A stretch of DNA of 64,000 bases from a virus, in IMG/VR virus record IMGVR_UViG_3300045988_131126; one strand, 5' to 3'. Both the position numbers and the translations under genes were made by a program. Of this stretch, positions 3,614 through 37,731 are shown one piece after another (position 1 is the stretch's first letter; every line of letters starts with the position of its first letter). The notes beneath the pieces were generated by a model. It worked only from the letters and a program-made list of their open reading frames with translations. It did not search any database and had not been told where the DNA came from.

Positions 3614-4768
3614 ATGTTTTTTGAAAGTATTTTAGAGGAAGTAAATATAGATGAGCCTGTATCTGAATCTACTATGGAAGAGATCAGACAGCTCAGTATT
3701 CCGAATTTTATGGAGTCAGCTTTATCTCCATTCGATCTTGTAGATAAAGGTATATATGAAAATGCTAAAGCCTATAATGATATGGTTTCAAAAATTAGTA
3801 AAATTGAACTTAATTATTTAAGAGAAAATGGTGAAGAACCAGTATGGGAAGCATCTGATCATCAGTCTATTTTTGCTAGATTTATTGCTGGAATAAAACA
3901 TATTATCCAGGTTATTGCTGGAGCATTCCAGAAACTTATCAAATCTATTGATGATATGATTACAAATCGGTATAAAAAGCTTGGTGCTGAATTTGTAAAA
4001 CAAATGCAAAGTGCTGAGATTCGTGGTGTCGATCTTAGTAATAAAACATTTACACTTATAAAATATGAACCTGAAGTAGGTATCAGACTTCTTCATAATG
4101 CCGAAAATGTTCAGGGAAATATTAATAAGGTAGATGCTTATAAGAAAGCATGGTCTTATGTATTCACTGGTGAATCAACGAGATCTTCAGAAGGACTTAA
4201 AGAAGTAGAAGGTAATGCAGTAGATTCTTTGAGAAAAGTATTATTCAATCACTCTGCAATTGATACTTCCAAATTAAATAGCAATGCTGCTGCTAGAGAC
4301 GCATTAAGATCTGCTATGTGTCCTGCAAGAGGAAGTGCTTCTTTTGGTGAAGCTATGTATTATGTAAAAGCTTATAGAGCTGATCCTAGAGCGCAGAAAC
4401 TTAAAGCTGGACTTAAACAAATGTACCAGCGAATCAACAAAGTTTTAGGAAAACAGATCGACGTTGCTAAATCTTTACAGAAATCTATTGATGGTAAAAA
4501 AGAACCTGTACCATCTCAGGTTACAGGAAGCATCGTTTCTGGACTTAATGCATACTCTTCAATGGTAACTAGTATTTATAACGAAACAGTTAGATGCGCA
4601 TCTAAGAGATGGTCCCAGTCTTGTACTCTTACATCTAAACTTCTTAAATCTGCAAAAGGTGAATTAAAAGGTAACGCTAAAGAACAGAAATCTGCAGCCA
4701 AAGATATGAAGAATTTCGATAAAGATCAGGAAAAGAAAGCATCTAAAGCTACAAAAGAAAACAAATAA
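3614..4768 (+). CDS. Hypothetical protein
   Basis: ORF track. AGGAGG SD. AACA-N6-TA at 3566-3577. Confidence 0.75.
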   Translation: MFFESILEEVNIDEPVSESTMEEIRQLSIPNFMESALSPFDLVDKGIYENAKAYNDMVSKISKIELNYLRENGEEPVWEASDHQSIFARFIAGIKHIIQVIAGAFQKLIKSIDDMITNRYKKLGAEFVKQMQSAEIRGVDLSNKTFTLIKYEPEVGIRLLHNAENVQGNINKVDAYKKAWSYVFTGESTRSSEGLKEVEGNAVDSLRKVLFNHSAIDTSKLNSNAAARDALRSAMCPARGSASFGEAMYYVKAYRADPRAQKLKAGLKQMYQRINKVLGKQIDVAKSLQKSIDGKKEPVPSQVTGSIVSGLNAYSSMVTSIYNETVRCASKRWSQSCTLTSKLLKSAKGELKGNAKEQKSAAKDMKNFDKDQEKKASKATKENK

Positions 4769-29054: not shown

Positions 29055-30854
29055 TTAAAACTTAGGATCTGTAAGCTTTACTTTATCCTCATTCAATACT
29101 TTAGTTAAATTATATATGGCTTGTACTGCTTCATTTGTAGAAACTTTAATATTATTTCCACCAAGATCTATATATACTGCTTTAGAATTAATCTGCTCCC
29201 TTAACTCTCTATTGGCTTCTTCTGACCAAACAGCTTTTACAGAACACTGGTCACCATCATAGTCACCACCAATGGATTTAAGATAAACATTACTGAATAC
29301 TAATGTATCAATGAACTTATTGGAAGTATCACTTCCAATATCAGATTCTCTAATCTTTGGATAGAATGGATAATATGTATTATTTACATATATCTTTTCG
29401 GTTTCTTTTGTTGTACTTACTCTTACTAGTATCGGAAACTCGTTGAAGTAAGAATCCATAGGGAATCGAGTAATAAGAATGGTTTTATCCTTACATGCTT
29501 CACATGCTGCCATATATAATACATCACACCATGTAAGCGGCCTATTAATAAGAGAAGATTCTCCCATTATATCACCGCCAGTTTTAGCATACTTAGCTTT
29601 AGATACTTTCTTACCTTTAAATACTAATCCTAAAGTTCTTCCTGTCTTTTGATCGGTTAATGTAACTGGTTCTAATCTCTTAGAGAAAGAGAAGATAAAT
29701 TTATCTATTTGAGAATCTATCTCTTCATCAGAAAAAGTTATAAGTGGATCTTTAGGTTCAAACGGTACTAATTTTTTAGCTTTCGGATCGTAGACTTGCA
29801 TCAATTCTACATTTTGAAATAGATTTTCAAATAATCTTTTAGTCTGGAATATAATAAATGGCTTAAAGTTTACCAATGCAGATGCTAATGGTAATGCTGC
29901 ATGGTCTGTATCTACCATTAAATCTTCCATAGCTTCTACTTTTAAATCTGGAGCTGATAATACCAAACGTGTACCCATATCTGTAGATTTACTTAATACA
30001 GCTTCACGTATAATACCTGTCTTACCAGCTAATCCAATGCCATCATCTTTATTTTTAGAAGTACCAAATAAAGCATTAGATATATTTAATAAAGTTTCTT
30101 GTATTCTAGCATTAGTAGTATTCTCTATAGATAATCCGTAATCCTGAGTTTCTTGTATAGCTTTAGATGATATTATTAATGATTGATAATACTTATTAAT
30201 ACCACCAGCTCCAACAGCACCTTTAACCTTAGTATCCATATCTCTATAGAACGGAGGTATTACAAGAAATTTATCAAGAAACATCATTTTCTTGCATTTA
30301 TATAAGAATTGTATCTTTGTTGATCTAGTTCTTGTACCAGTTTCTTTTATTTTTATTTTATTTATATTTTTTCTAAGGAATTCTATACCAGTATCACCGC
30401 CAGATTGTACCTCTTGAATTAAACCATCCTGGTCTACTTTATAGAATCCTATCCCTGATACTATATTTCTAATTCTTTTATCTATACTGCACCATACTTT
30501 GTAGCAAAATGGATGCATGAACCACCCATGTAAATCAATATAACCAAATATATTAGCTCTATCATCTTTAGTTATACCGAATATTTCTTGAGATAATAAT
30601 CCTTTCGGAGCAGGATAGCCATCTCTAATAAATAATAAAGTATCTGTGATCTCTTCTACATTATTTTTCTTTATAAAATCTTGATAATCTAATAAGTCTA
30701 CCTTAAGGTGATTCATTTCTGCTTCATTCAAAACTCTACGACCATTGGTAGACACCCCATGAACAACAAGATTTACTATATTAAACTCTTCTTTAGTTAA
30801 AGTGAATTGTCCAGATTTACGCTGATAGTTTAGTGCACCTAAAATACCTGTCAT
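29055..30854 (-). CDS. RNA polymerase beta-prime subunit, N-terminal half (phage multisubunit RNAP)
   Basis: FLVIPPFYRD (compare VLPPDLRP), GKTGIIREAVLSKSTDMGTRLVLSAPDL (compare [24 protein letters not shown]), ITRFPMDS (compare NRAPTLH), IGGDYDGDQCSV (compare NADFDGDQMAVH). Confidence 0.85.
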   Translation of the reverse strand: MTGILGALNYQRKSGQFTLTKEEFNIVNLVVHGVSTNGRRVLNEAEMNHLKVDLLDYQDFIKKNNVEEITDTLLFIRDGYPAPKGLLSQEIFGITKDDRANIFGYIDLHGWFMHPFCYKVWCSIDKRIRNIVSGIGFYKVDQDGLIQEVQSGGDTGIEFLRKNINKIKIKETGTRTRSTKIQFLYKCKKMMFLDKFLVIPPFYRDMDTKVKGAVGAGGINKYYQSLIISSKAIQETQDYGLSIENTTNARIQETLLNISNALFGTSKNKDDGIGLAGKTGIIREAVLSKSTDMGTRLVLSAPDLKVEAMEDLMVDTDHAALPLASALVNFKPFIIFQTKRLFENLFQNVELMQVYDPKAKKLVPFEPKDPLITFSDEEIDSQIDKFIFSFSKRLEPVTLTDQKTGRTLGLVFKGKKVSKAKYAKTGGDIMGESSLINRPLTWCDVLYMAACEACKDKTILITRFPMDSYFNEFPILVRVSTTKETEKIYVNNTYYPFYPKIRESDIGSDTSNKFIDTLVFSNVYLKSIGGDYDGDQCSVKAVWSEEANRELREQINSKAVYIDLGGNNIKVSTNEAVQAIYNLTKVLNEDKVKLTDPKF

Positions 30855-30909: not shown

Positions 30910-30937
30910 AGCTAGTATGGGTTAACCCATACTAGCT
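30910..30937 (-). terminator. Hairpin overlapping the stop of 30922-31239
   Basis: agctagtatgggt / acccatactagct, followed on the minus strand by a T-rich tract. Confidence 0.5.
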
Positions 30938-31239
30938 GTATTTAAAATATTTATTCGTATTGATTTATCATCAACTACACTGTTTATGAAATACTTATCT
31001 CCATAAATATGTAGAAAGGTTCCATTAATTAATCCTTGCATTTCATTAGCGTCTTTTTTGTTCTTAAATGCTATTACGAAAGGATTAATTATTTTATTAT
31101 CAACAGATATATTCACAGTATCACAGTTACCAAATAGATTATATAGAAGCATAACCTCTTCAAAATGATTAAGTATATATTCTTCTATACTTATATCAGA
31201 GGAACTGGACAACGAGTTTATGAATCTACATCTATCCAA
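30922..31239 (-). CDS. Hypothetical protein (105 aa, TTG start)
   Basis: ORF track. AAGAGGAGG SD 9 nt upstream of the TTG. Confidence 0.65.
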   Translation of the reverse strand: MDRCRFINSLSSSSDISIEEYILNHFEEVMLLYNLFGNCDTVNISVDNKIINPFVIAFKNKKDANEMQGLINGTFLHIYGDKYFINSVVDDKSIRINILNTASMG

Positions 31240-31439
31240 AATCTTAATCCTCCTCTTTTACATGTCTCCATTGACAGCATCTTCTAATACTTCGGCTTGT
31301 TTAGCTTGCTGTGCTCTCTTACTTCTAGATTCACGATCTATTATATATTTCAATGTATTGACATGCCCAAAAGGTATATTAGTCAATTCAAATATAGTAG
31401 TTCTTCCTCTAAAATAAGTAGCTATACCGACACACTCTC

Positions 31440-32990
31440 CTATAAAGCCGCCAGTGCTGCCAATCTGTGACGCGTAAAAACCAATTCATCTGCAGAGATA
31501 GCTGTAGCTGGAATAACTGCATTACATTCAATACATGTTGTTTCAGGAATCTGATAAGAGATAGATTCGTCACGTTTACTGATCTCCTGAATATACATAA
31601 GAATTGCATGATACTGGTCAGAAGACAGTTTACGAATAGTCTTACCAAACTGAATGATTTTAGATTTAGCTGTTTTAGCTGTATTATTTGTATAATGACG
31701 ATACTCGATAGGATCAAGAGTCATTGTATTCTTATTAATATAATAAATAGAATCAATATAAGATACAAGTGCAATAATATCTCTATATTTCTCTACGAAT
31801 GCTGTATCAAGCATAGCAATTTCAAATACCATATTGAAGATAGATGGTTCTCTAAATCCAATAGCAAAATCTTCAGATACAGGTACAACCTCAGATTTAT
31901 ATAATCCTTTAGGTTTAGCGATATTTCCATTATAAATATTATAGAATTTTGTTTTAGCTTCATCATTCTCAAACTTAACGAAATCCATAATATCAAGATT
32001 ATCAGTTAAGAATACATGCTTATTATCTGTAGGACAGTTTGTAATCGGCATATATGCTTCTCCTTCAAATGTAGCACGAAAAGCACCAAACCAATAATGC
32101 TCGATATCGAAGAAGCTTGTGCACTTAGCCCACTCTTCCATTGAAGCAGGCTTATCTCTATCAATAATATGATCATAAAGCATTTTATATCTTACAGATT
32201 CAGAATTCATTCTACTTCCGCCAGGATTATTGAGCTTATCAATTTCTGCACCTGTGAAACCAAGCATTCTAAATCTGTTACCTGTATTATATGCTACCCA
32301 ATCTGCAGCTTTTCTATTAGGATTTTCTACTGTATCAAGTACAGCATTTAATGCTACTGGCTTCTTAGATATTGTAAATGCAGAAAGGTCATATTTTTTA
32401 GCTACAACCTTAATTTTGGATTTTACTGAAGCTTTTAATTTCTCATTGATAATTTCATCATCTCTTGTTTCCTGAGTAGTGGTTGCAGTATTTTCATCTT
32501 CATCCTCGTCGTCATCAGGAAATTCGATATCATCAAGATTAGTAGGAATATTATACTCTTCTTTTTTAGGAGCATTATCAAATCCAATTATTTTCTCAGG
32601 ATCTGCATCTACTTTTACATCTGCCATTTCTTTAAGTTCATCGTTTGATGTAGGAGTCGCAGACGTTGTTAATACTGGCTTTTCTTCTTCATTCGTATGA
32701 TCTGATTCAATTTCAAATTCTTCTTCATTTGTATATTCATCATCTTCTATGATATTAGAATAACCTGTTGTGTATTTAACGGTTTTTTCTACTTCTTCTT
32801 GCTGATCTGGTTCTTTTTTAGCTACGCTTTTTGTTACTGATCTACCAGTAATAGCACTAGCTACTGTTTCTTCGTCTCTTTCCTGCGGATAAGCATAATG
32901 TACTTCGTTTCCATCATTCTTAAGATCACTAAGAGATACGGAATCTTCTGGTCTTGCGTTGTCTGTAAAAACTTTGTTTTCTGTGGACAT
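31440..32990 (-). CDS. Hypothetical protein (516 aa) with an acidic N-terminal third; possible -1 frameshift extension
   Basis: ORF track. AAGGAGG SD. See the finding on 31258-31482. Confidence 0.75.
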   Translation of the reverse strand: MSTENKVFTDNARPEDSVSLSDLKNDGNEVHYAYPQERDEETVASAITGRSVTKSVAKKEPDQQEEVEKTVKYTTGYSNIIEDDEYTNEEEFEIESDHTNEEEKPVLTTSATPTSNDELKEMADVKVDADPEKIIGFDNAPKKEEYNIPTNLDDIEFPDDDEDEDENTATTTQETRDDEIINEKLKASVKSKIKVVAKKYDLSAFTISKKPVALNAVLDTVENPNRKAADWVAYNTGNRFRMLGFTGAEIDKLNNPGGSRMNSESVRYKMLYDHIIDRDKPASMEEWAKCTSFFDIEHYWFGAFRATFEGEAYMPITNCPTDNKHVFLTDNLDIMDFVKFENDEAKTKFYNIYNGNIAKPKGLYKSEVVPVSEDFAIGFREPSIFNMVFEIAMLDTAFVEKYRDIIALVSYIDSIYYINKNTMTLDPIEYRHYTNNTAKTAKSKIIQFGKTIRKLSSDQYHAILMYIQEISKRDESISYQIPETTCIECNAVIPATAISADELVFTRHRLAALAAL

Positions 32991-33010: not shown

Positions 33011-33436
33011 TTATAAATCGTCTTCATCATCGAAGTCATCTTCAAATCCAGTTTTAACTGAACCCAAGATATTATCTATTTCATCAGCAGACTGTTTAGT
33101 TTCTGCTGCAATTTTCTCTTTGTTTTTATTTCGAGCTTTTATAACTCTTTCCATAGGTTTAGTATTTAATGGAATAGGTTTATCACCTAATAAGACATTA
33201 GCATATCCATATCCAAGCAATTCATTCATTTCCTGTTTAGAAATATTACCATCTGTCTCTTCCATAATTTCATTAAATTTTTTAGCTTCCGCTATTTTCT
33301 TAGGAATAATAACTTTATCGAACACATCCAAAGCTCTATCAGCATCATCTTCTTTTTCTGGATGAAGCATTGGATCATCTTCCTTAGGAGCAGGTTTGAA
33401 ACCGAGTTCTTCAGGAGTCATTTCTACTAAAGCCAT
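33011..33436 (-). CDS. Hypothetical acidic protein (141 aa)
   Basis: ORF track. AAAGGAG SD. Confidence 0.7.
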   Translation of the reverse strand: MALVEMTPEELGFKPAPKEDDPMLHPEKEDDADRALDVFDKVIIPKKIAEAKKFNEIMEETDGNISKQEMNELLGYGYANVLLGDKPIPLNTKPMERVIKARNKNKEKIAAETKQSADEIDNILGSVKTGFEDDFDDEDDL

Positions 33437-33454: not shown

Positions 33455-33841
33455 TTATCCGTTATATAATTCGGTTAAAGTAACTTCATTATTTTTGGAT
33501 ATATTAGCTTTTAATGTATAAATAGAATCATCAATATCTAATTCTATTAAAAGAATTTTGTTTTCTTGTAAACTTATATTTACGTCTACTTGAGTAAAAT
33601 ACGGAAGAAATCTATTTATTTGATCCTCAATATTTTCTTCTAAGTCAACAATAGTTTCAGAATTCATATATCTATATTTACTAACCAGTCCTACTCCAGC
33701 TTCTGGGGCAATGGAAATAGTACCTGGTTCTAATAATATTAATCTACATACTAAAGTTAGTATTGCATCTTTATCTTTTATAACTAGAGGTTTATTGAAC
33801 GTACTTGTCGTAAACAAGTGATCTGTAAAAGTTTGCATCAT
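33455..33841 (-). CDS. Baseplate wedge protein, gp25 / GPW-like
   Basis: AILTLVCRLILLEPGTISIAPEAGVGLVSKY...LEENIEDQINRFLPYFTQVDVNIS follows the gp25 pattern (sIknsLlgiitTrkGsRpfdPeFGcdL....ve.nIesav..yEPRi....V.v). Confidence 0.6.
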   Translation of the reverse strand: MMQTFTDHLFTTSTFNKPLVIKDKDAILTLVCRLILLEPGTISIAPEAGVGLVSKYRYMNSETIVDLEENIEDQINRFLPYFTQVDVNISLQENKILLIELDIDDSIYTLKANISKNNEVTLTELYNG

Positions 33842-35406: not shown

Positions 35407-37731
35407 ATGAACGAAATAGCATTAATGGAAGCAGCCTCTTCTGTATATAAAAGAAAATATCAATGCCCTTACTGTAACGAAAAATATGATAGAATTAAAC
35501 TTGTGGATCATATAGAAAAGAAACATTCGGAATTCATTCCAAAAGACTTTACTGCATCTAGAATAGTATTTAATACCGTAAATAAAAAAGAAAAAGGCAA
35601 ATGCACTATATGTGGAAAAGAATCTCCATGGGACGAAGATAAATGTAGATACGATAGATTTTGCAGTGATAAATGTAAAAAAGCTTACGAGCAACTAGCT
35701 GCAGAAAGATTAAAAAGGGTAAGAGGAATGACTAAGCAAGAAATGCTTAAAGATCCAGAATATCAAAATAATGTAATGCTTGCCAATAGAAGTATATCAG
35801 GAAAATATAAATTTCAAGATGGAACCATAAGAACTTATGTAGGTTCTTATGAGCATAAGTTTTTGGAATTTATGGATAAATTTTTAAATGTAAAAAGCGA
35901 GGACCTAGAAACTCCTGGGCCTATAATAGAATATAAGTTTAAAGGAGAAACTCATAAGTGGATTACTGATGCTTATTATGCTCCATATAACTTAGCATTT
36001 GATATTAAAGATGGCGGAGATAATCCAAATAAAAGAGAAATGCCTGAATATAGAGCTAAACAAATAGCAAAAGAAGATGCTATTAGAAAACAAGGTAAAT
36101 ATAATTATATAAGATTAACCGATAACAAGTTTGAGCAATTGATAGAATTAATGCTTGAATTAAAAGAATTATATATAGAGAATAATGGAGAATATAATCC
36201 TATTATAAGAATCAATGAATCTACTGTATTAGAAAGCAAGAAAGCCAAAGACTTAGGACCTAAAGTATGTAGTAAATGTGGATCTAAAAACATAGGAGTA
36301 TTTTTCCAAGGAGAACCTATCTACAAATGTAAAGATTGCGGAGAATATTTAGGAGTAGTACCATTTAACGAATCTGCTTCAAACGATATAATCCAAAATG
36401 CGTTTAATTCAGTAATTCATACTATTAAATGGTGCAGAATGGATGACTCTGCTTTTTGCAGTATAAATGAATATAACAAGCCAAAGATAATTAGCGATAA
36501 TTCATTCTCTGCTGGTAAATTTGCGTATGAATCTGGAATTGATGCTGTAGTAAAAACTATTAACTATAACAATATTTTCGAAAATGGAAAATATTCTGCA
36601 AGATGTGATAATAATGAATTAATTATCACGATTGATAAATTGAATAACATGAATGAATCATATATTATAGATGAAATATATAAAGGAGATAATAATATGA
36701 TTCGTGAAAATAAATCTACACTTGATCCAAATCATAAAACTAAAAAGACTGATACAACTTTTAAGTTTATAGATCTTAAAGATCCTAGCGTAGATAAATA
36801 TTTAAAACAAGACAAATATTGTACAGAGTATTGGGATTATATTCATAAAAGTTGCATAGGTGAAATAGTTATAGATGCTGATAGCGATTGTATAGCAGGA
36901 TATGTATTCTTAGATAATAAGAAATATCCGGGATTTATAACTCCGGTTGTAGTGATTAAGAAATATAGAGGATATGGATTATCTTCTAAGCTTGTAAAAG
37001 ATGCCATAAATAAATATAAGGCCATAGATTTAACTGTAACGAAAGATAACGAAGTTGCTATTAAATTATATAAAGATAACGGGTTCGTTATAATTGGAGA
37101 CGGTAATTCCAAAAATGAGTATTGGATGAAGCTCAAAAGCAAGCTTACTGATGAAGAGAAATCTAAATCACTAAAAGAATTTTCTATAATAACTCCATCA
37201 TCTGATAAACCTTCTCAAGAAGGATTTATTGGTCATGGATCTTGGAATGCTATTAAGAAAGTTAATGGAGAACCATATAGAGAGCGTGTAGAAGTAATTA
37301 TATTTAATAAGGAATTAGATAAAGTACTTATTGGTACTAGAAAATCTGATGGTAGTGTTAAACTACCTGGAGGTGGTACTGATAAGAATTCTTCATTAGA
37401 GTCTCAAGCTGCTAAAGAATGTCAAGAAGAAGTAAAGGTAAATATAGATAATCTTAAGTATATCGGAAGTTATTCTATGTCTAATGAACAGGCTAGGTAT
37501 AAGGATGATGTATATAAAGGACAATACACGTATCTATATTTAGCAATTTATGATTCTGATTATACTGGATATATTAGACCAGAAGATCTTGATTCTTTAT
37601 ATGATACAGCTGAATGGATGAGTATTTATGATGCTAAAAAATTATTAAAGAAGAGATCTGTAGATTTATACAACTTATTTAACTATAATTATAAATTATA
37701 TATTAATGATTTATCGTATTTAAAATTATAA
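35407..37731 (+). CDS. Multidomain protein: C2H2 and FCS-type zinc fingers, PD-(D/E)xK-like nuclease, zinc ribbon, GNAT acetyltransferase, Nudix-like domain
   Basis: - Zinc fingers: CPYCNEKY..HIEKKH and RFCSDKCKKAY.
- Nuclease: SYEHKFLEFMD..IEYKFKGETHKWITDAYY..LAFDIKD (D..DxK).
- Zinc ribbon: CSKCGS..CKDCG.
- GNAT motif A: VVIKKYRGYGLSSKLV..
- Nudix-like: RVEVIIF..LPGGGTDKNSSLESQAAKECQEEVKV. Confidence 0.6.
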   Translation: MNEIALMEAASSVYKRKYQCPYCNEKYDRIKLVDHIEKKHSEFIPKDFTASRIVFNTVNKKEKGKCTICGKESPWDEDKCRYDRFCSDKCKKAYEQLAAERLKRVRGMTKQEMLKDPEYQNNVMLANRSISGKYKFQDGTIRTYVGSYEHKFLEFMDKFLNVKSEDLETPGPIIEYKFKGETHKWITDAYYAPYNLAFDIKDGGDNPNKREMPEYRAKQIAKEDAIRKQGKYNYIRLTDNKFEQLIELMLELKELYIENNGEYNPIIRINESTVLESKKAKDLGPKVCSKCGSKNIGVFFQGEPIYKCKDCGEYLGVVPFNESASNDIIQNAFNSVIHTIKWCRMDDSAFCSINEYNKPKIISDNSFSAGKFAYESGIDAVVKTINYNNIFENGKYSARCDNNELIITIDKLNNMNESYIIDEIYKGDNNMIRENKSTLDPNHKTKKTDTTFKFIDLKDPSVDKYLKQDKYCTEYWDYIHKSCIGEIVIDADSDCIAGYVFLDNKKYPGFITPVVVIKKYRGYGLSSKLVKDAINKYKAIDLTVTKDNEVAIKLYKDNGFVIIGDGNSKNEYWMKLKSKLTDEEKSKSLKEFSIITPSSDKPSQEGFIGHGSWNAIKKVNGEPYRERVEVIIFNKELDKVLIGTRKSDGSVKLPGGGTDKNSSLESQAAKECQEEVKVNIDNLKYIGSYSMSNEQARYKDDVYKGQYTYLYLAIYDSDYTGYIRPEDLDSLYDTAEWMSIYDAKKLLKKRSVDLYNLFNYNYKLYINDLSYLKL

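What the first reader, a model, noticed from the sequence alone, without database searches (positions are those of the whole stretch)
31258..31482. A stop-free -1 frame fills the 200-nt gap behind a GGTTTTT run: candidate programmed frameshift extension of the 516-aa protein
The ORF track leaves 31240-31439 empty. On the minus strand, however, the -1 frame relative to ORF 31440-32990 is open for 72 codons.

It opens right after a TGA at 31491-31489. It passes the heptamer G-GTT-TTT (31482-31476), which lies 11 codons before the zero-frame TAG. It ends at TAA 31260-31258, only 18 nt before the TTG of the next gene.

A -1 slip on GGTTTTT would replace the last 11 residues with a 72-aa tail: YASQIGSTGGFIGECVGIATYFRGRTTIFELTNIPFGHVNTLKYIIDRESRSKRAQQAKQAEVLEDAVNGDM.

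With stop-codon frequencies typical of such AT-rich DNA, a random 72-75 codon open stretch is improbable. This one fits the gap exactly, and no ATG or GTG start with an SD is present inside it.

From memory, T7 capsid gene 10 makes its extended 10B form by a -1 shift on a very similar G-GUU-UUC site near the end of the gene.
Basis: partly seen in the sequence, partly recalled or inferred. Interest (0 to 1): 0.7.

Follow-up and report, generated by a model that had tools for sequence, protein, structure and literature searches.

The report
Conserved −1 frameshift in baseplate-hub gene
A tail-assembly (baseplate hub) gene of a large group of giant bacterial viruses almost certainly makes a second, longer protein when ribosomes slip back one base on GGTTTTT near its end; genome annotations have missed this, or recorded the extension as a tiny separate gene.

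Summary
On the minus strand, the 516-aa ORF (31440-32990) carries G_GTT_TTT at 31482-31476. The −1 frame is open from 31485 to the TAA at 31260-31258.

The heptamer alone is not unusual: 12 copies in the window against 9.8 expected. The comparative evidence is what carries the case.
- In 19 clusters of relatives (down to ~25% identity), a T-run sits at the same Leu/Met-Val/Leu-Phe site. These include the cultured phages AR9/PBS1, BpSp, Staphylococcus jumbo phages and Yersinia phiR1-37.
- The −1 frame stays open across the overlap in every cluster, then encodes a conserved 69-148-aa tail ending just before the next gene.
- Tail dN/dS is 0.11-0.21.
- Synonymous choices preserve the slippery site (P≈1e-7) and the open frame (≈1e-10.6).
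- No conserved start codon or SD exists.
- No homologue carries the tail in frame.

The zero-frame C-terminus is itself conserved, so this is not a sequencing error. No stimulatory RNA structure was found.

The protein has the fold of T4 gp26/gp51 baseplate-hub proteins and lies beside a gp25-like gene.

Verdict: an unannotated, conserved −1 programmed frameshift, and a new member of a known kind. No protein-level evidence is available.

The parts
31440..32990 (-). Zero-frame gene: a 516-aa protein. The N-terminal ~175 aa are acidic and disordered. Residues ~220-516 form a conserved domain with Cys motifs and a C-terminal helix LVFTRHRLAALAAL. It has the fold of T4 gp26/gp51 baseplate-hub (assembly) proteins.
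   Evidence: ORF list. 59 homologues, all ending at the same motif. AF2 pLDDT >90 for residues 220-516. 41 Foldseek BFVD hits with E<=1e-3, including 'Baseplate hub subunit', 'hub assembly protein, T4-like' and 'hub assembly chaperone'. phrog_18873.
31476..31482 (-). Slippery heptamer G_GTT_TTT (zero-frame codons TTG GTT TTT = Leu-Val-Phe). This is the proposed −1 shift site.
   Evidence: Sequence. 18 of 19 clusters keep NTT-TTY here, P=7e-8. The preceding Leu codon ends in G in 10 of 10 cases, P=1.6e-7. It is the only slip-prone motif in the 34-136-nt window through which the −1 frame can be entered.
31486..31488 (-). TGA stop in the −1 frame, one codon 5' of the heptamer. It limits entry into the −1 frame to 31485-31443.
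   Evidence: Translation; upstream-open lengths.
31443..31475 (-). Dual-coding overlap: the last 11 zero-frame codons (TRHRLAALAAL) are read in the −1 frame as the tail's linker (YASQIGSTGGF).
   Evidence: The −1 frame is stop-free here in 19 of 19 clusters; the product of synonymous-resampling probabilities is 10^-10.6. Synonymous changes are suppressed in close pairs, e.g. 10 same / 1 different against 8/8 upstream.
31258..31476 (-). −1-frame tail: 72 codons (31476-31261) plus TAA (31260-31258). It contains a conserved motif (..fIxxLxxIxxYFRGRtTIxELxNxP..) followed by a charged helix with an acidic end. The predicted trans-frame product is 505 + 72 = 577 aa.
   Evidence: alignment A5. dN/dS is 0.11-0.21 in this frame against ~1 in the other frames. 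No conserved start codon or SD. In the AF2 fusion model the helix at 369-401 has pLDDT ~85 and the motif region has pLDDT <50.
31258..31386 (-). 42-aa TTG ORF listed by the ORF finder and annotated as a protein in the public record of this phage. It is most likely a mis-annotated 3' part of the tail.
   Evidence: P0070 = UniRef A0A8S5UF73, Myoviridae sp. ctcyQ27. The TTG is TTA in L003/L004, and it starts inside the conserved motif.
30922..31239 (-). Next gene (105 aa, TTG start, SD GAGGAGG at about 31255-31249). A gene in this position, starting just after the tail's stop, is present in all relatives.
30910..30937 (-). Terminator-like hairpin with a T tract after the 105-aa gene. There is none in the 200-nt 'gap', so the gene, the tail and the next gene are probably co-transcribed.
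33455..33841 (-). gp25-like baseplate wedge gene upstream. It supplies the synteny context (T4 genes 25 and 26 are also adjacent).
   Evidence: Pfam GPW_gp25, E=8e-4, below the cutoff. The neighbouring gene is annotated 'baseplate wedge subunit' in AR9, BpSp, SA1 and MarsHill. T4 gene map.

Best explanation
The 516-aa gene encodes a T4 gp26/gp51-like baseplate-hub (assembly) protein of an AR9/PBS1-related jumbo phage, and it is decoded in two ways.

Most ribosomes read to the TAG. They produce the 516-aa form, which ends in a conserved amphipathic helix (LVFTRHRLAALAAL).

A fraction slip back one nucleotide on G_GUU_UUU. tRNA-Phe re-pairs perfectly from UUU to UUU. tRNA-Val re-pairs from GUU to GGU at two of three positions. 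These ribosomes continue in the −1 frame to the TAA at 31260-31258. They produce a 577-aa form in which the last 11 residues are replaced by a 72-aa tail: a linker, a conserved ~30-aa motif, and a charged helix with an acidic end.

Shown: the frame structure, its conservation, purifying selection on the tail, selection on the slippery site and on the open frame, and the absence of an independent start.

Inferred: that the event is ribosomal. Its efficiency is probably low (a few per cent), because no cis-stimulatory RNA structure was found. The two isoforms may act at a fixed ratio in hub or tail assembly, with the tail's conserved motif serving as a partner-binding peptide, by analogy with lambda G/GT.
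For: 1. The −1 ORF runs from the shift site to just before the next gene in all 48 distinct metagenomic relatives. It does so also in cultured AR9, BpSp, DC4, SA1, MarsHill, AH12 and phiR1-37. Together these form 19 clusters at 60% identity.

2. The tail is a conserved protein sequence (alignment A5). Its dN/dS is 0.11-0.21 in six evaluable comparisons (0.40 in a seventh, near-identical pair with only 5 differences), against ~1 in the other frames.

3. The site is conserved at synonymous positions. NTT-TTY occurs in 18 of 19 clusters (P=7e-8). G at position 1 occurs in 10 of 10 Leu codons (P=1.6e-7).

4. The −1 frame is stop-free across the overlap in 19 of 19 clusters (10^-10.6). A −1 stop lies 1-15 codons upstream of the site in all but one cluster (31 codons in L061). 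The T-run is the only slip-prone motif in the entry window.

5. There is no canonical in-frame start before the conserved motif in 10 of 21 representatives; five more have one only at or within the conserved motif. Where a start exists it usually has at most 3-4 nt of SD (one has 5 nt), against 4-7 nt for the next gene. Gene callers and annotators placed starts at many non-homologous positions: CTG in AR9, TTG in DC4, MarsHill and phiR1-37, ATG in BpSp, SA1 and AH12. MarsHill's annotators gave this ORF no RBS.

6. The zero-frame C-terminus is conserved, and the protein ends 0-5 aa after the profile end in 200 of 200 family members.

7. G_GU-type heptamers are established bacterial −1 shift sites, as in T7 gene 10 (PMC5009743).
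Against: There is no direct evidence for the trans-frame protein. No proteomic detection of either product was found: BpSp's virion proteome lists the gp25-like neighbour but not this protein.

No stable or conserved RNA structure lies 3' of the site (mean z≈0 over 21 representatives). No SD-like stimulator was seen 5' of it by inspection of the upstream sequences.

P-site re-pairing is imperfect for G_GUU and poor for the x_CUU_UUU variant found in AR9-like phages.

One clade (L038/L039) has a displaced, weaker site, AUU_UUG.

No natural homologue with the tail fused in frame was found to confirm that both parts belong to one polypeptide.
Confidence: 0.8

Rival explanations
1. Transcriptional slippage. 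The phage or host RNA polymerase adds one U in the T-run, producing a subpopulation of mRNAs in which the tail is in frame.
For: The common denominator of all site variants is a run of at least 4 T. BpSp has T8. These phages encode their own multisubunit RNA polymerases, whose slippage behaviour is unknown.
Against: Runs of only 4-5 T (GGTTTTC, CTTTTC, ATTTTG) are shorter than known bacterial slippage sites, which have about 7-9 or more (established knowledge; reviewed in PMC5009743). The G 5' of GTT is selected at a synonymous position (P=1.6e-7). That matters for tRNA re-pairing, not for polymerase stuttering.
Confidence: 0.07
2. The tail is a separate small gene. It is translated by its own initiation (non-canonical start, or termination-reinitiation after the upstream stop), not as an extension of the 516-aa protein.
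For: Some relatives have an in-frame ATG within the first part of the tail (L005, L006, L018, L036, L038, L061). Databases annotate small ORFs here. No in-frame fused homologue was found.
Against: - There is no conserved start. Ten of 21 representatives have no ATG/GTG/TTG before the conserved motif, and five more have one only at or within it.
- Candidate starts usually have at most 3-4 nt of SD (one has 5 nt), whereas the neighbouring genes have 4-7 nt.
- Annotated starts cut into the conserved motif at different places.
- The −1 frame is kept open upstream of the zero-frame stop in 19 of 19 clusters (10^-10.6), which an independent downstream start would not require.
- The slippery site is conserved at synonymous positions.
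Confidence: 0.08
3. Sequencing or assembly error in the T5 run. The true gene is a single 577-aa ORF.
For: Homopolymer runs are error-prone, and the shift needed is exactly one base.
Against: The same arrangement occurs in more than 60 independent assemblies and in finished genomes of cultured phages. The zero-frame residues after the site (TRHxLaaLa-stop) are among the most conserved in the family: R507 and L510 are invariant. None of 200 family proteins has an in-frame extension.
Confidence: 0.01
4. The −1 ORF is conserved for a reason other than translation (for example an RNA element), or it is a relic that is no longer expressed.
For: No expression data exist. The conserved motif is modelled with low confidence.
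Against: The substitution pattern is that of a protein: third-position changes dominate and dN/dS is 0.11-0.21 in this frame only. Tail length varies from 69 to 148 aa while the frame stays open. No RNA structure signal was found.
Confidence: 0.04

Closest known systems
Bacteriophage T7 gene 10 (capsid proteins 10A/10B): −1 frameshift on G_GUU_UUC
   Same: The heptamer is of the same G_GU type; relatives L007/L013 carry exactly G_GTT_TTC. The site lies a few codons before the zero-frame stop. The product is a C-terminally extended minor form of a morphogenetic protein. There is no nearby classical stimulatory hairpin. (PMC5009743.)
   Different: The protein here is a baseplate-hub-type protein, not a capsid protein. 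T7's frameshift depends on a distant element in the terminator more than 200 nt downstream; nothing equivalent was tested here. The window's terminator lies about 540 nt downstream, beyond another gene.
Lambda gpG/gpGT and the conserved frameshift in tail-assembly-chaperone genes of tailed phages
   Same: A −1 frameshift near the 3' end of a tail-morphogenesis gene yields a minor long form. The long form shares the body of the short form and adds a C-terminal domain. The frameshift is conserved across very divergent phages while the sequence diverges. There is no strong RNA stimulator. (Established knowledge; this work.)
   Different: - The gene is not between the tail-tube and tape-measure genes. 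It lies next to a gp25-like baseplate gene.
- The protein is 390-730 aa rather than about 100-150 aa.
- The fold is gp26/gp51-like. Foldseek matches to tail assembly chaperones are not significant (ranks 45-46).
- Here the frameshift also removes a conserved C-terminal helix.
T4 gp26 / gp51 baseplate hub and hub-assembly proteins (Pfam PF12322 T4_baseplate)
   Same: Predicted fold (41 BFVD hits with E<=1e-3, many named baseplate hub subunit or assembly protein). The same order of motifs: Cys pair, h-K/R-F-R-x-P-x-I-F, then CxxCG close to a short C-terminal helix. Adjacency to the gp25 gene. T4 gene 26 also yields two products (26 and 26', an internal start).
   Different: Sequence similarity is below Pfam's threshold. 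The jumbo-phage proteins have a long acidic N-terminal extension. T4 makes its two gene-26 products by internal initiation and has two paralogues (26 and 51), with no frameshift. The tail profile does not match gp51's C-terminal extension.
Cardiovirus 2B* frameshift on G_GUU_UUU
   Same: The heptamer is of the same G_GU type; PMC5009743 names cardioviruses among G_GU-type sites. That the cardiovirus heptamer is exactly G_GUU_UUU is from my own knowledge.
   Different: That system works on eukaryotic ribosomes and depends on a viral protein bound to a 3' stem-loop (my own knowledge). No 3' structure is conserved here.

Membership tests
−1 programmed ribosomal frameshift (tandem-slippage type, X_XXY_YYZ and its G_GU variants) | Slippery heptamer in the correct register relative to the zero frame | tested here: met
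   G_GTT_TTT with zero-frame codons TTG GTT TTT. G_GU-type sites are accepted variants (PMC5009743).
−1 programmed ribosomal frameshift (tandem-slippage type, X_XXY_YYZ and its G_GU variants) | An overlapping −1 ORF without its own initiation signal, conserved and under purifying selection | tested here: met
−1 programmed ribosomal frameshift (tandem-slippage type, X_XXY_YYZ and its G_GU variants) | Shift site conserved beyond what the encoded amino acids require | tested here: met
   P=7e-8 for NTT before TTY. P=1.6e-7 for G at position 1. One clade (L038/L039) deviates.
−1 programmed ribosomal frameshift (tandem-slippage type, X_XXY_YYZ and its G_GU variants) | Cis stimulator (3' hairpin or pseudoknot, or 5' SD-like sequence). 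Common but not obligatory. | tested here: not met
   For 45- and 70-nt segments 3' of the site in 21 representatives, mean z≈0 and there is no shared helix. No SD-like sequence was seen 8-14 nt upstream by inspection of the sequences. An unexplained CGN preference lies 2 codons downstream.
−1 programmed ribosomal frameshift (tandem-slippage type, X_XXY_YYZ and its G_GU variants) | Trans-frame protein demonstrated | not testable with these tools
   No proteomic or ribosome-profiling data could be found.
T4 gp26/gp51 baseplate hub family (Pfam PF12322) | Match to the family HMM above the curated cutoff | tested here: not met
   The window protein and 32 homologues give no PF12322 hit. BpSp gp286 scores 17.4 bits against a cutoff of 24.5. 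hhalign against single T4 sequences finds only short local matches.
T4 gp26/gp51 baseplate hub family (Pfam PF12322) | Same fold | tested here: met
   Foldseek against BFVD: E of 1e-7 to 1e-4, probability 1.0, target-normalised TM 0.5-0.6 to proteins named baseplate hub subunit, assembly protein or chaperone. No solved structure matched.
T4 gp26/gp51 baseplate hub family (Pfam PF12322) | Genomic association with baseplate genes | tested here: met
   Immediately downstream of a gp25-like gene in the cultured relatives examined (AR9, BpSp, SA1, MarsHill); in the metagenomic relatives a small gene occupies the same upstream position but was not tested for gp25-likeness, and in the window's closest relatives a 141-aa gene intervenes. 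T4 genes 25, 26 and 51 are adjacent.
T4 gp26/gp51 baseplate hub family (Pfam PF12322) | Role in hub assembly | not testable with these tools
   The only indirect evidence is that the protein is not listed among virion proteins of BpSp and is not flagged as structural in phiR1-37, unlike its neighbours g239 and g240.
Lambda G/GT-type tail assembly chaperone | Small gene pair located between the tail-tube and tape-measure genes | tested here: not met
   The neighbours are a gp25-like gene upstream, then a small gene plus RNAP beta' (window) or GroEL (AR9 group) downstream.
Lambda G/GT-type tail assembly chaperone | Tail-assembly-chaperone fold | tested here: not met
   Only non-significant Foldseek matches to tail assembly chaperones (E of about 0.1 or higher).
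Lambda G/GT-type tail assembly chaperone | −1 frameshift near the 3' end giving a minor extended form | tested here: met
   As inferred above. The efficiency is unknown.

The most novel reading that the evidence does not exclude
One gene plus a frameshift may do in AR9-like jumbo phages what two paralogous genes (26 and 51) or an internal start (26') do in T4. The two isoforms would differ in a switchable C-terminus: a conserved helix versus a partner-binding tail. Their ribosome-set ratio would control hub and tape-measure assembly. That would make this the long-missing functional counterpart of lambda G/GT for T4-type and giant contractile tails.

A further possibility follows from the absence of any cis RNA stimulator and from the unexplained selected 3' context (ACN-CGN). 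The shift may be stimulated in trans, or by the nascent peptide.
Probability: 0.2. Interest if true: 0.75.

Novelty: new member of a known kind. Interest (0 to 1): 0.6.

Why it matters
1. Annotation. Genomes of model jumbo phages (AR9/PBS1, phiR1-37, Staphylococcus and Bacillus jumbo phages) and several hundred to about a thousand metagenomic lineages list an orphan 40-120-aa 'hypothetical protein' with arbitrary starts. Others leave a 200-nt gap. The real product is probably a trans-frame fusion.

2. Recoding. It adds a new gene family, gp26/gp51-like baseplate-hub proteins, to the short list of phage genes with deeply conserved recoding. It also gives an evolutionary series of site variants for studying minimal, structure-independent −1 shifting in Firmicutes-type and enterobacterial hosts: G_GUU_UUU, G_GUU_UUC, x_CUU_UUU, CUU_UUC and AUU_UUG.

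3. Assembly. The roles of gp26 and gp51 in hub assembly are still poorly understood. A two-isoform design with a conserved peptide tail offers a concrete handle for pull-downs and mutants.

Tried and rejected
- GenBank phage searches with the DNA, the 516-aa protein and the tail gave nothing at default sensitivity. Only a relaxed tblastn with the conserved domain reached AR9/PBS1.
- A single-protein scan of IMG/VR failed, and the 32-sequence alignment was too diverse. Sub-alignments worked.
- PDB sequence and fold searches found no relative.
- The hypothesis that the tail corresponds to T4 gp51's C-terminal extension was rejected: hhalign probability 0.09.
- A search for natural in-frame fusions of body and tail found none.
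- A search for a 3' stimulatory hairpin or pseudoknot found none.
- Synonymous-rate suppression in the overlap is seen only between close relatives. The linker peptide itself is therefore not conserved; only its openness is.
- Literature searches for this frameshift in AR9, PBS1, phiR1-37, gp26 or jumbo phages found nothing.
- Proteome papers on DC4 and BpSp mention neither product.
- Heptamer over-representation in the window: not significant.
Full report
**1. Observation**

On the minus strand, the ORF at 31440-32990 encodes a 516-aa protein ending ...ISADELVFTRHRLAALAAL-TAG. The codons TTG GTT TTT place G_GTT_TTT at 31482-31476, in the register needed for a −1 tandem slip.

The −1 frame has a TGA at 31488-31486. 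From there the frame is open for 75 codons to the TAA at 31260-31258. That stop lies 18 nt before the TTG start (31239) of the next gene, and those 18 nt contain its GAGGAGG Shine-Dalgarno sequence.

The only canonical start inside the frame is a TTG at 31386, giving a 42-aa ORF without a properly spaced SD.

GGTTTTT by itself is not unusual: 12 copies in the window against 9.8 expected. The single-sequence observation is real but only suggestive.

**2. Relatives**

No GenBank phage is close. The large protein collection holds 59 homologues. An exhaustive profile search finds 1,056 clusters at 50% identity.

All homologues end at the same conserved C-terminal motif, [VL]F-x-R-x-x-L-...-stop. 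In 200 of 200 checked proteins, the protein ends 0-5 residues after the end of the profile. The zero-frame stop is therefore genuine, and a sequencing error is excluded.

I fetched the DNA of 9 relatives by exact protein look-up and 52 IMG/VR loci. I then added the cultured phages AR9, BpSp, DC4, SA1, MarsHill, AH12 and phiR1-37.

In every one of the 48 distinct metagenomic sequences, and in all the cultured phages:
- the −1 frame is open from the Val/Leu-Phe site to a stop that lies just before the next gene in most loci (up to ~70 nt before it in the cultured phages);
- the +1 frame closes within 4-29 codons.

Tails are 69-148 aa long. They share a motif (f-x-x-L-x-x-I-x-x-Y-F/Y-R/K-G-R/T-x-T/S-I-x-E-L/M-x-x-M-P...) followed by a charged segment, which ends in acidic residues in the metagenomic clades but is basic in the AR9-like cultured phages (alignment A5).

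**3. Is the tail translated, and from where?**

- *Purifying selection.* For the part of the tail beyond the zero-frame stop, dN/dS is 0.11-0.21 in six evaluable comparisons from several clades (0.40 in a near-identical pair with only 5 differences). It is about 1 when the same DNA is read in the other two frames.
- *Site conservation.* The loci fall into 19 clusters at 60% identity. In 18 of them the codon before Phe is GTT or CTT, giving NTT-TTY. The Poisson-binomial P is 7e-8 against each gene's own codon usage.
- *Position 1.* Where that codon is GTT and the residue before it is Leu, the Leu codon ends in G in 10 of 10 clusters (P=1.6e-7). This is the G of G_GUU_UUY, and it matters for P-site tRNA re-pairing.
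- *Open overlap.* The −1 frame has no stop across the overlap in 19 of 19 clusters. Resampling synonymous codons of the zero-frame peptide gives a joint probability of 10^-10.6. This links the tail to the slippery site rather than to a start downstream of the stop.
- *Narrow entry window.* A −1-frame stop lies 1-15 codons upstream in all but one cluster (31 codons in L061). The entry window is therefore 34-136 nt, and its only slip-prone motif is the T-run.
- *No independent start.* Ten of 21 representatives have no ATG/GTG/TTG in frame before the conserved motif, and five more have one only at or within it. Where such a codon exists it usually has at most 3-4 nt of SD complementarity (one has 5 nt), while the downstream genes have 4-7 nt.
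- *Inconsistent annotation.* Gene callers and annotators chose starts at many non-homologous positions, often inside the conserved motif. Examples are CTG for AR9 gp229; TTG for DC4_00084, MarsHill_177 and phiR1-37 g242; ATG for BpSp gp285, SA1 and AH12; and the 42-aa TTG ORF of this phage. MarsHill's annotators marked an RBS for the flanking genes but none for this ORF.

**4. Site variants and stimulators**

Variants seen are G_GTT_TTT (most clades), G_GTT_TTC (L007/L013, identical to T7 gene 10), G/T_CTT_TTT (L014, L034, AR9, BpSp with T8, the Staphylococcus phages, phiR1-37), A_CTT_TTC (AH12) and ATT_TTG (L038/L039).

In all variants but the last, tRNA-Phe on UUY can re-pair perfectly with UUU one base back; L038/L039 retains only the T-run.

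No stable or shared RNA structure follows the site. The window's own 96-nt downstream segment gives z=+0.68, and the mean z is about 0 for 21 representatives at 45 and 70 nt. No SD-like element was seen upstream of the site by inspection.

One unexplained signal remains. The invariant Arg two codons after Phe is CGN in 15 of 16 clusters, although CGN is rare elsewhere in most of these genes (P=3e-10). Avoidance of a −1-frame stop explains this only in part.

There is no terminator in the 200-nt 'gap'. The nearest is after the next gene, at 30937-30910.

**5. What the protein is**

- AlphaFold models residues 220-516 with pLDDT above 90; the acidic N-terminal ~175 residues are disordered.
- No solved structure matches.
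- Against predicted viral structures there are 41 matches with E<=1e-3. Many are named 'Baseplate hub subunit', 'Baseplate hub assembly protein, T4-like' or 'hub assembly chaperone'. There are also uncharacterised proteins of phiKZ-like phages.
- T4 gp26 and gp51 both belong to Pfam PF12322. BpSp gp286 reaches it only weakly, at 17.4 bits against a cutoff of 24.5.
- hhalign aligns the F-R-x-P-x-I-F motif and a Cys pair. T4 gp26 likewise ends CPECG...FFELL-stop.
- The gene follows a gp25-like baseplate wedge gene here and in the cultured relatives examined; T4 genes 25 and 26 are also adjacent.

I therefore call it a gp26/gp51-like baseplate-hub (assembly) protein on the basis of fold and synteny. 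It does not pass the Pfam sequence threshold.

In a model of the frameshift product, the body is unchanged. The conserved tail motif has low confidence (pLDDT <50), as expected for a segment that folds on a partner. The last ~30 residues form a confident helix.

The frameshift also removes the second half of the conserved zero-frame C-terminal helix, so the two isoforms differ qualitatively.

**6. Mechanism and rivals**

The best explanation is a −1 programmed ribosomal frameshift on G_GUU_UUU, yielding a 577-aa minor isoform (confidence about 0.8).

Rivals considered:
- *Transcriptional slippage* is unlikely with 4-5 T, and it does not explain the selected 5' G.
- *An independent small gene* is contradicted by the absence of a conserved start and by the stop-free overlap.
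- *Sequencing error* and *a non-translated element* are excluded by conservation and by dN/dS.

Efficiency and function are inferred, not shown. By analogy with lambda G/GT and T7 10A/10B, I expect a low, fixed ratio of long to short form acting in hub or tail assembly.

**7. Known or new**

G_GU-type heptamers are established shift sites, as in T7 gene 10 and the cardioviruses (PMC5009743). Conserved frameshifts in phage tail-assembly genes are textbook.

I found no report of a frameshift in this gene family or in AR9/PBS1-like phages. Public records either leave the region empty or annotate a small orphan ORF.

It is therefore a new member of a known kind: a previously unrecognised, deeply conserved recoding site in a gp26/gp51-like gene of a very large clade of jumbo phages. 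All evidence is comparative; protein-level confirmation is needed.

Noticed in passing
window 31470-31472 (minus strand, CGT) and the homologous codon in relatives: The invariant Arg two codons 3' of the shift-site Phe uses CGN in 15 of 16 clusters, although CGN is rare for Arg elsewhere in most of these genes (P=3e-10). It may be part of the frameshift context, or a by-product of stop avoidance in the −1 frame.
   Followed up: partly
L062:3951-4151 (AR9 gp229), L063:2550-2690 (BpSp gp285), L064:2556-2756 (DC4_00084), L065:2439-2606 (phiR1-37 g242), L066:2589-2747 (SA1), L068:1836-2033 (MarsHill_177), L069:1881-2033 (AH12): Small 'hypothetical proteins' annotated downstream of the gp26/51-like gene in cultured jumbo phages. 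Their start codons (CTG, TTG, ATG) are inconsistent, and MarsHill's has no annotated RBS. All lie in the −1 frame that is open back to an x_CTT_TTY site, so they are probably mis-annotated frameshift tails.
   Followed up: yes
L038 and L039, around position 4228: One clade has Ile-Leu-Phe encoded ATT TTG TTC, so the T-run (ATTTTG) sits one codon earlier and the usual heptamer is absent. The −1 ORF and the tail motif are nevertheless intact. This may be a weaker or different slip (tRNA-Leu UUG to UUU).
   Followed up: partly
P0060 (92 aa, on an 872-nt ENA contig): In one close relative the −1-frame TGA just upstream of the heptamer is TGG. The −1 frame then extends 20 codons further 5' to an ATG, and a gene caller called it as an overlapping gene. 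The upstream stop is therefore not universal.
   Followed up: no
window 35407-37731 (+): A 774-aa protein whose homologues in relatives carry zf-Di19, GNAT acetyltransferase and NUDIX hydrolase Pfam hits in one polypeptide (620-1120 aa in different relatives). This is an unusual fusion, divergently transcribed from the baseplate gene block.
   Followed up: no
window 29055-30854 (-): A 599-aa protein with a DYDGD motif matching phrog_2986 'RNA polymerase beta subunit'. It is 28-31% identical to the split beta' subunits of AR9, Staphylococcus, Listeria, Fusobacterium and phiR1-37 jumbo phages. This places the window in an AR9/PBS1-related jumbo phage (public record: Myoviridae sp. ctcyQ27). In the AR9 group this position holds GroEL instead.
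   Followed up: partly
window 33011-33436 (-): A 141-aa acidic protein lies between the gp25-like gene and the gp26/51-like gene. It is present only in the closest relatives (L001-L004). In more distant relatives the two baseplate genes are directly adjacent.
   Followed up: no
L067:7803-8429 (T4 gene 26 and 26'): T4 gene 26 is annotated with a second product, 26', consisting of its C-terminal 95 residues. A distant relative of the gene studied here thus also makes two isoforms, but through an internal start rather than a frameshift.
   Followed up: no
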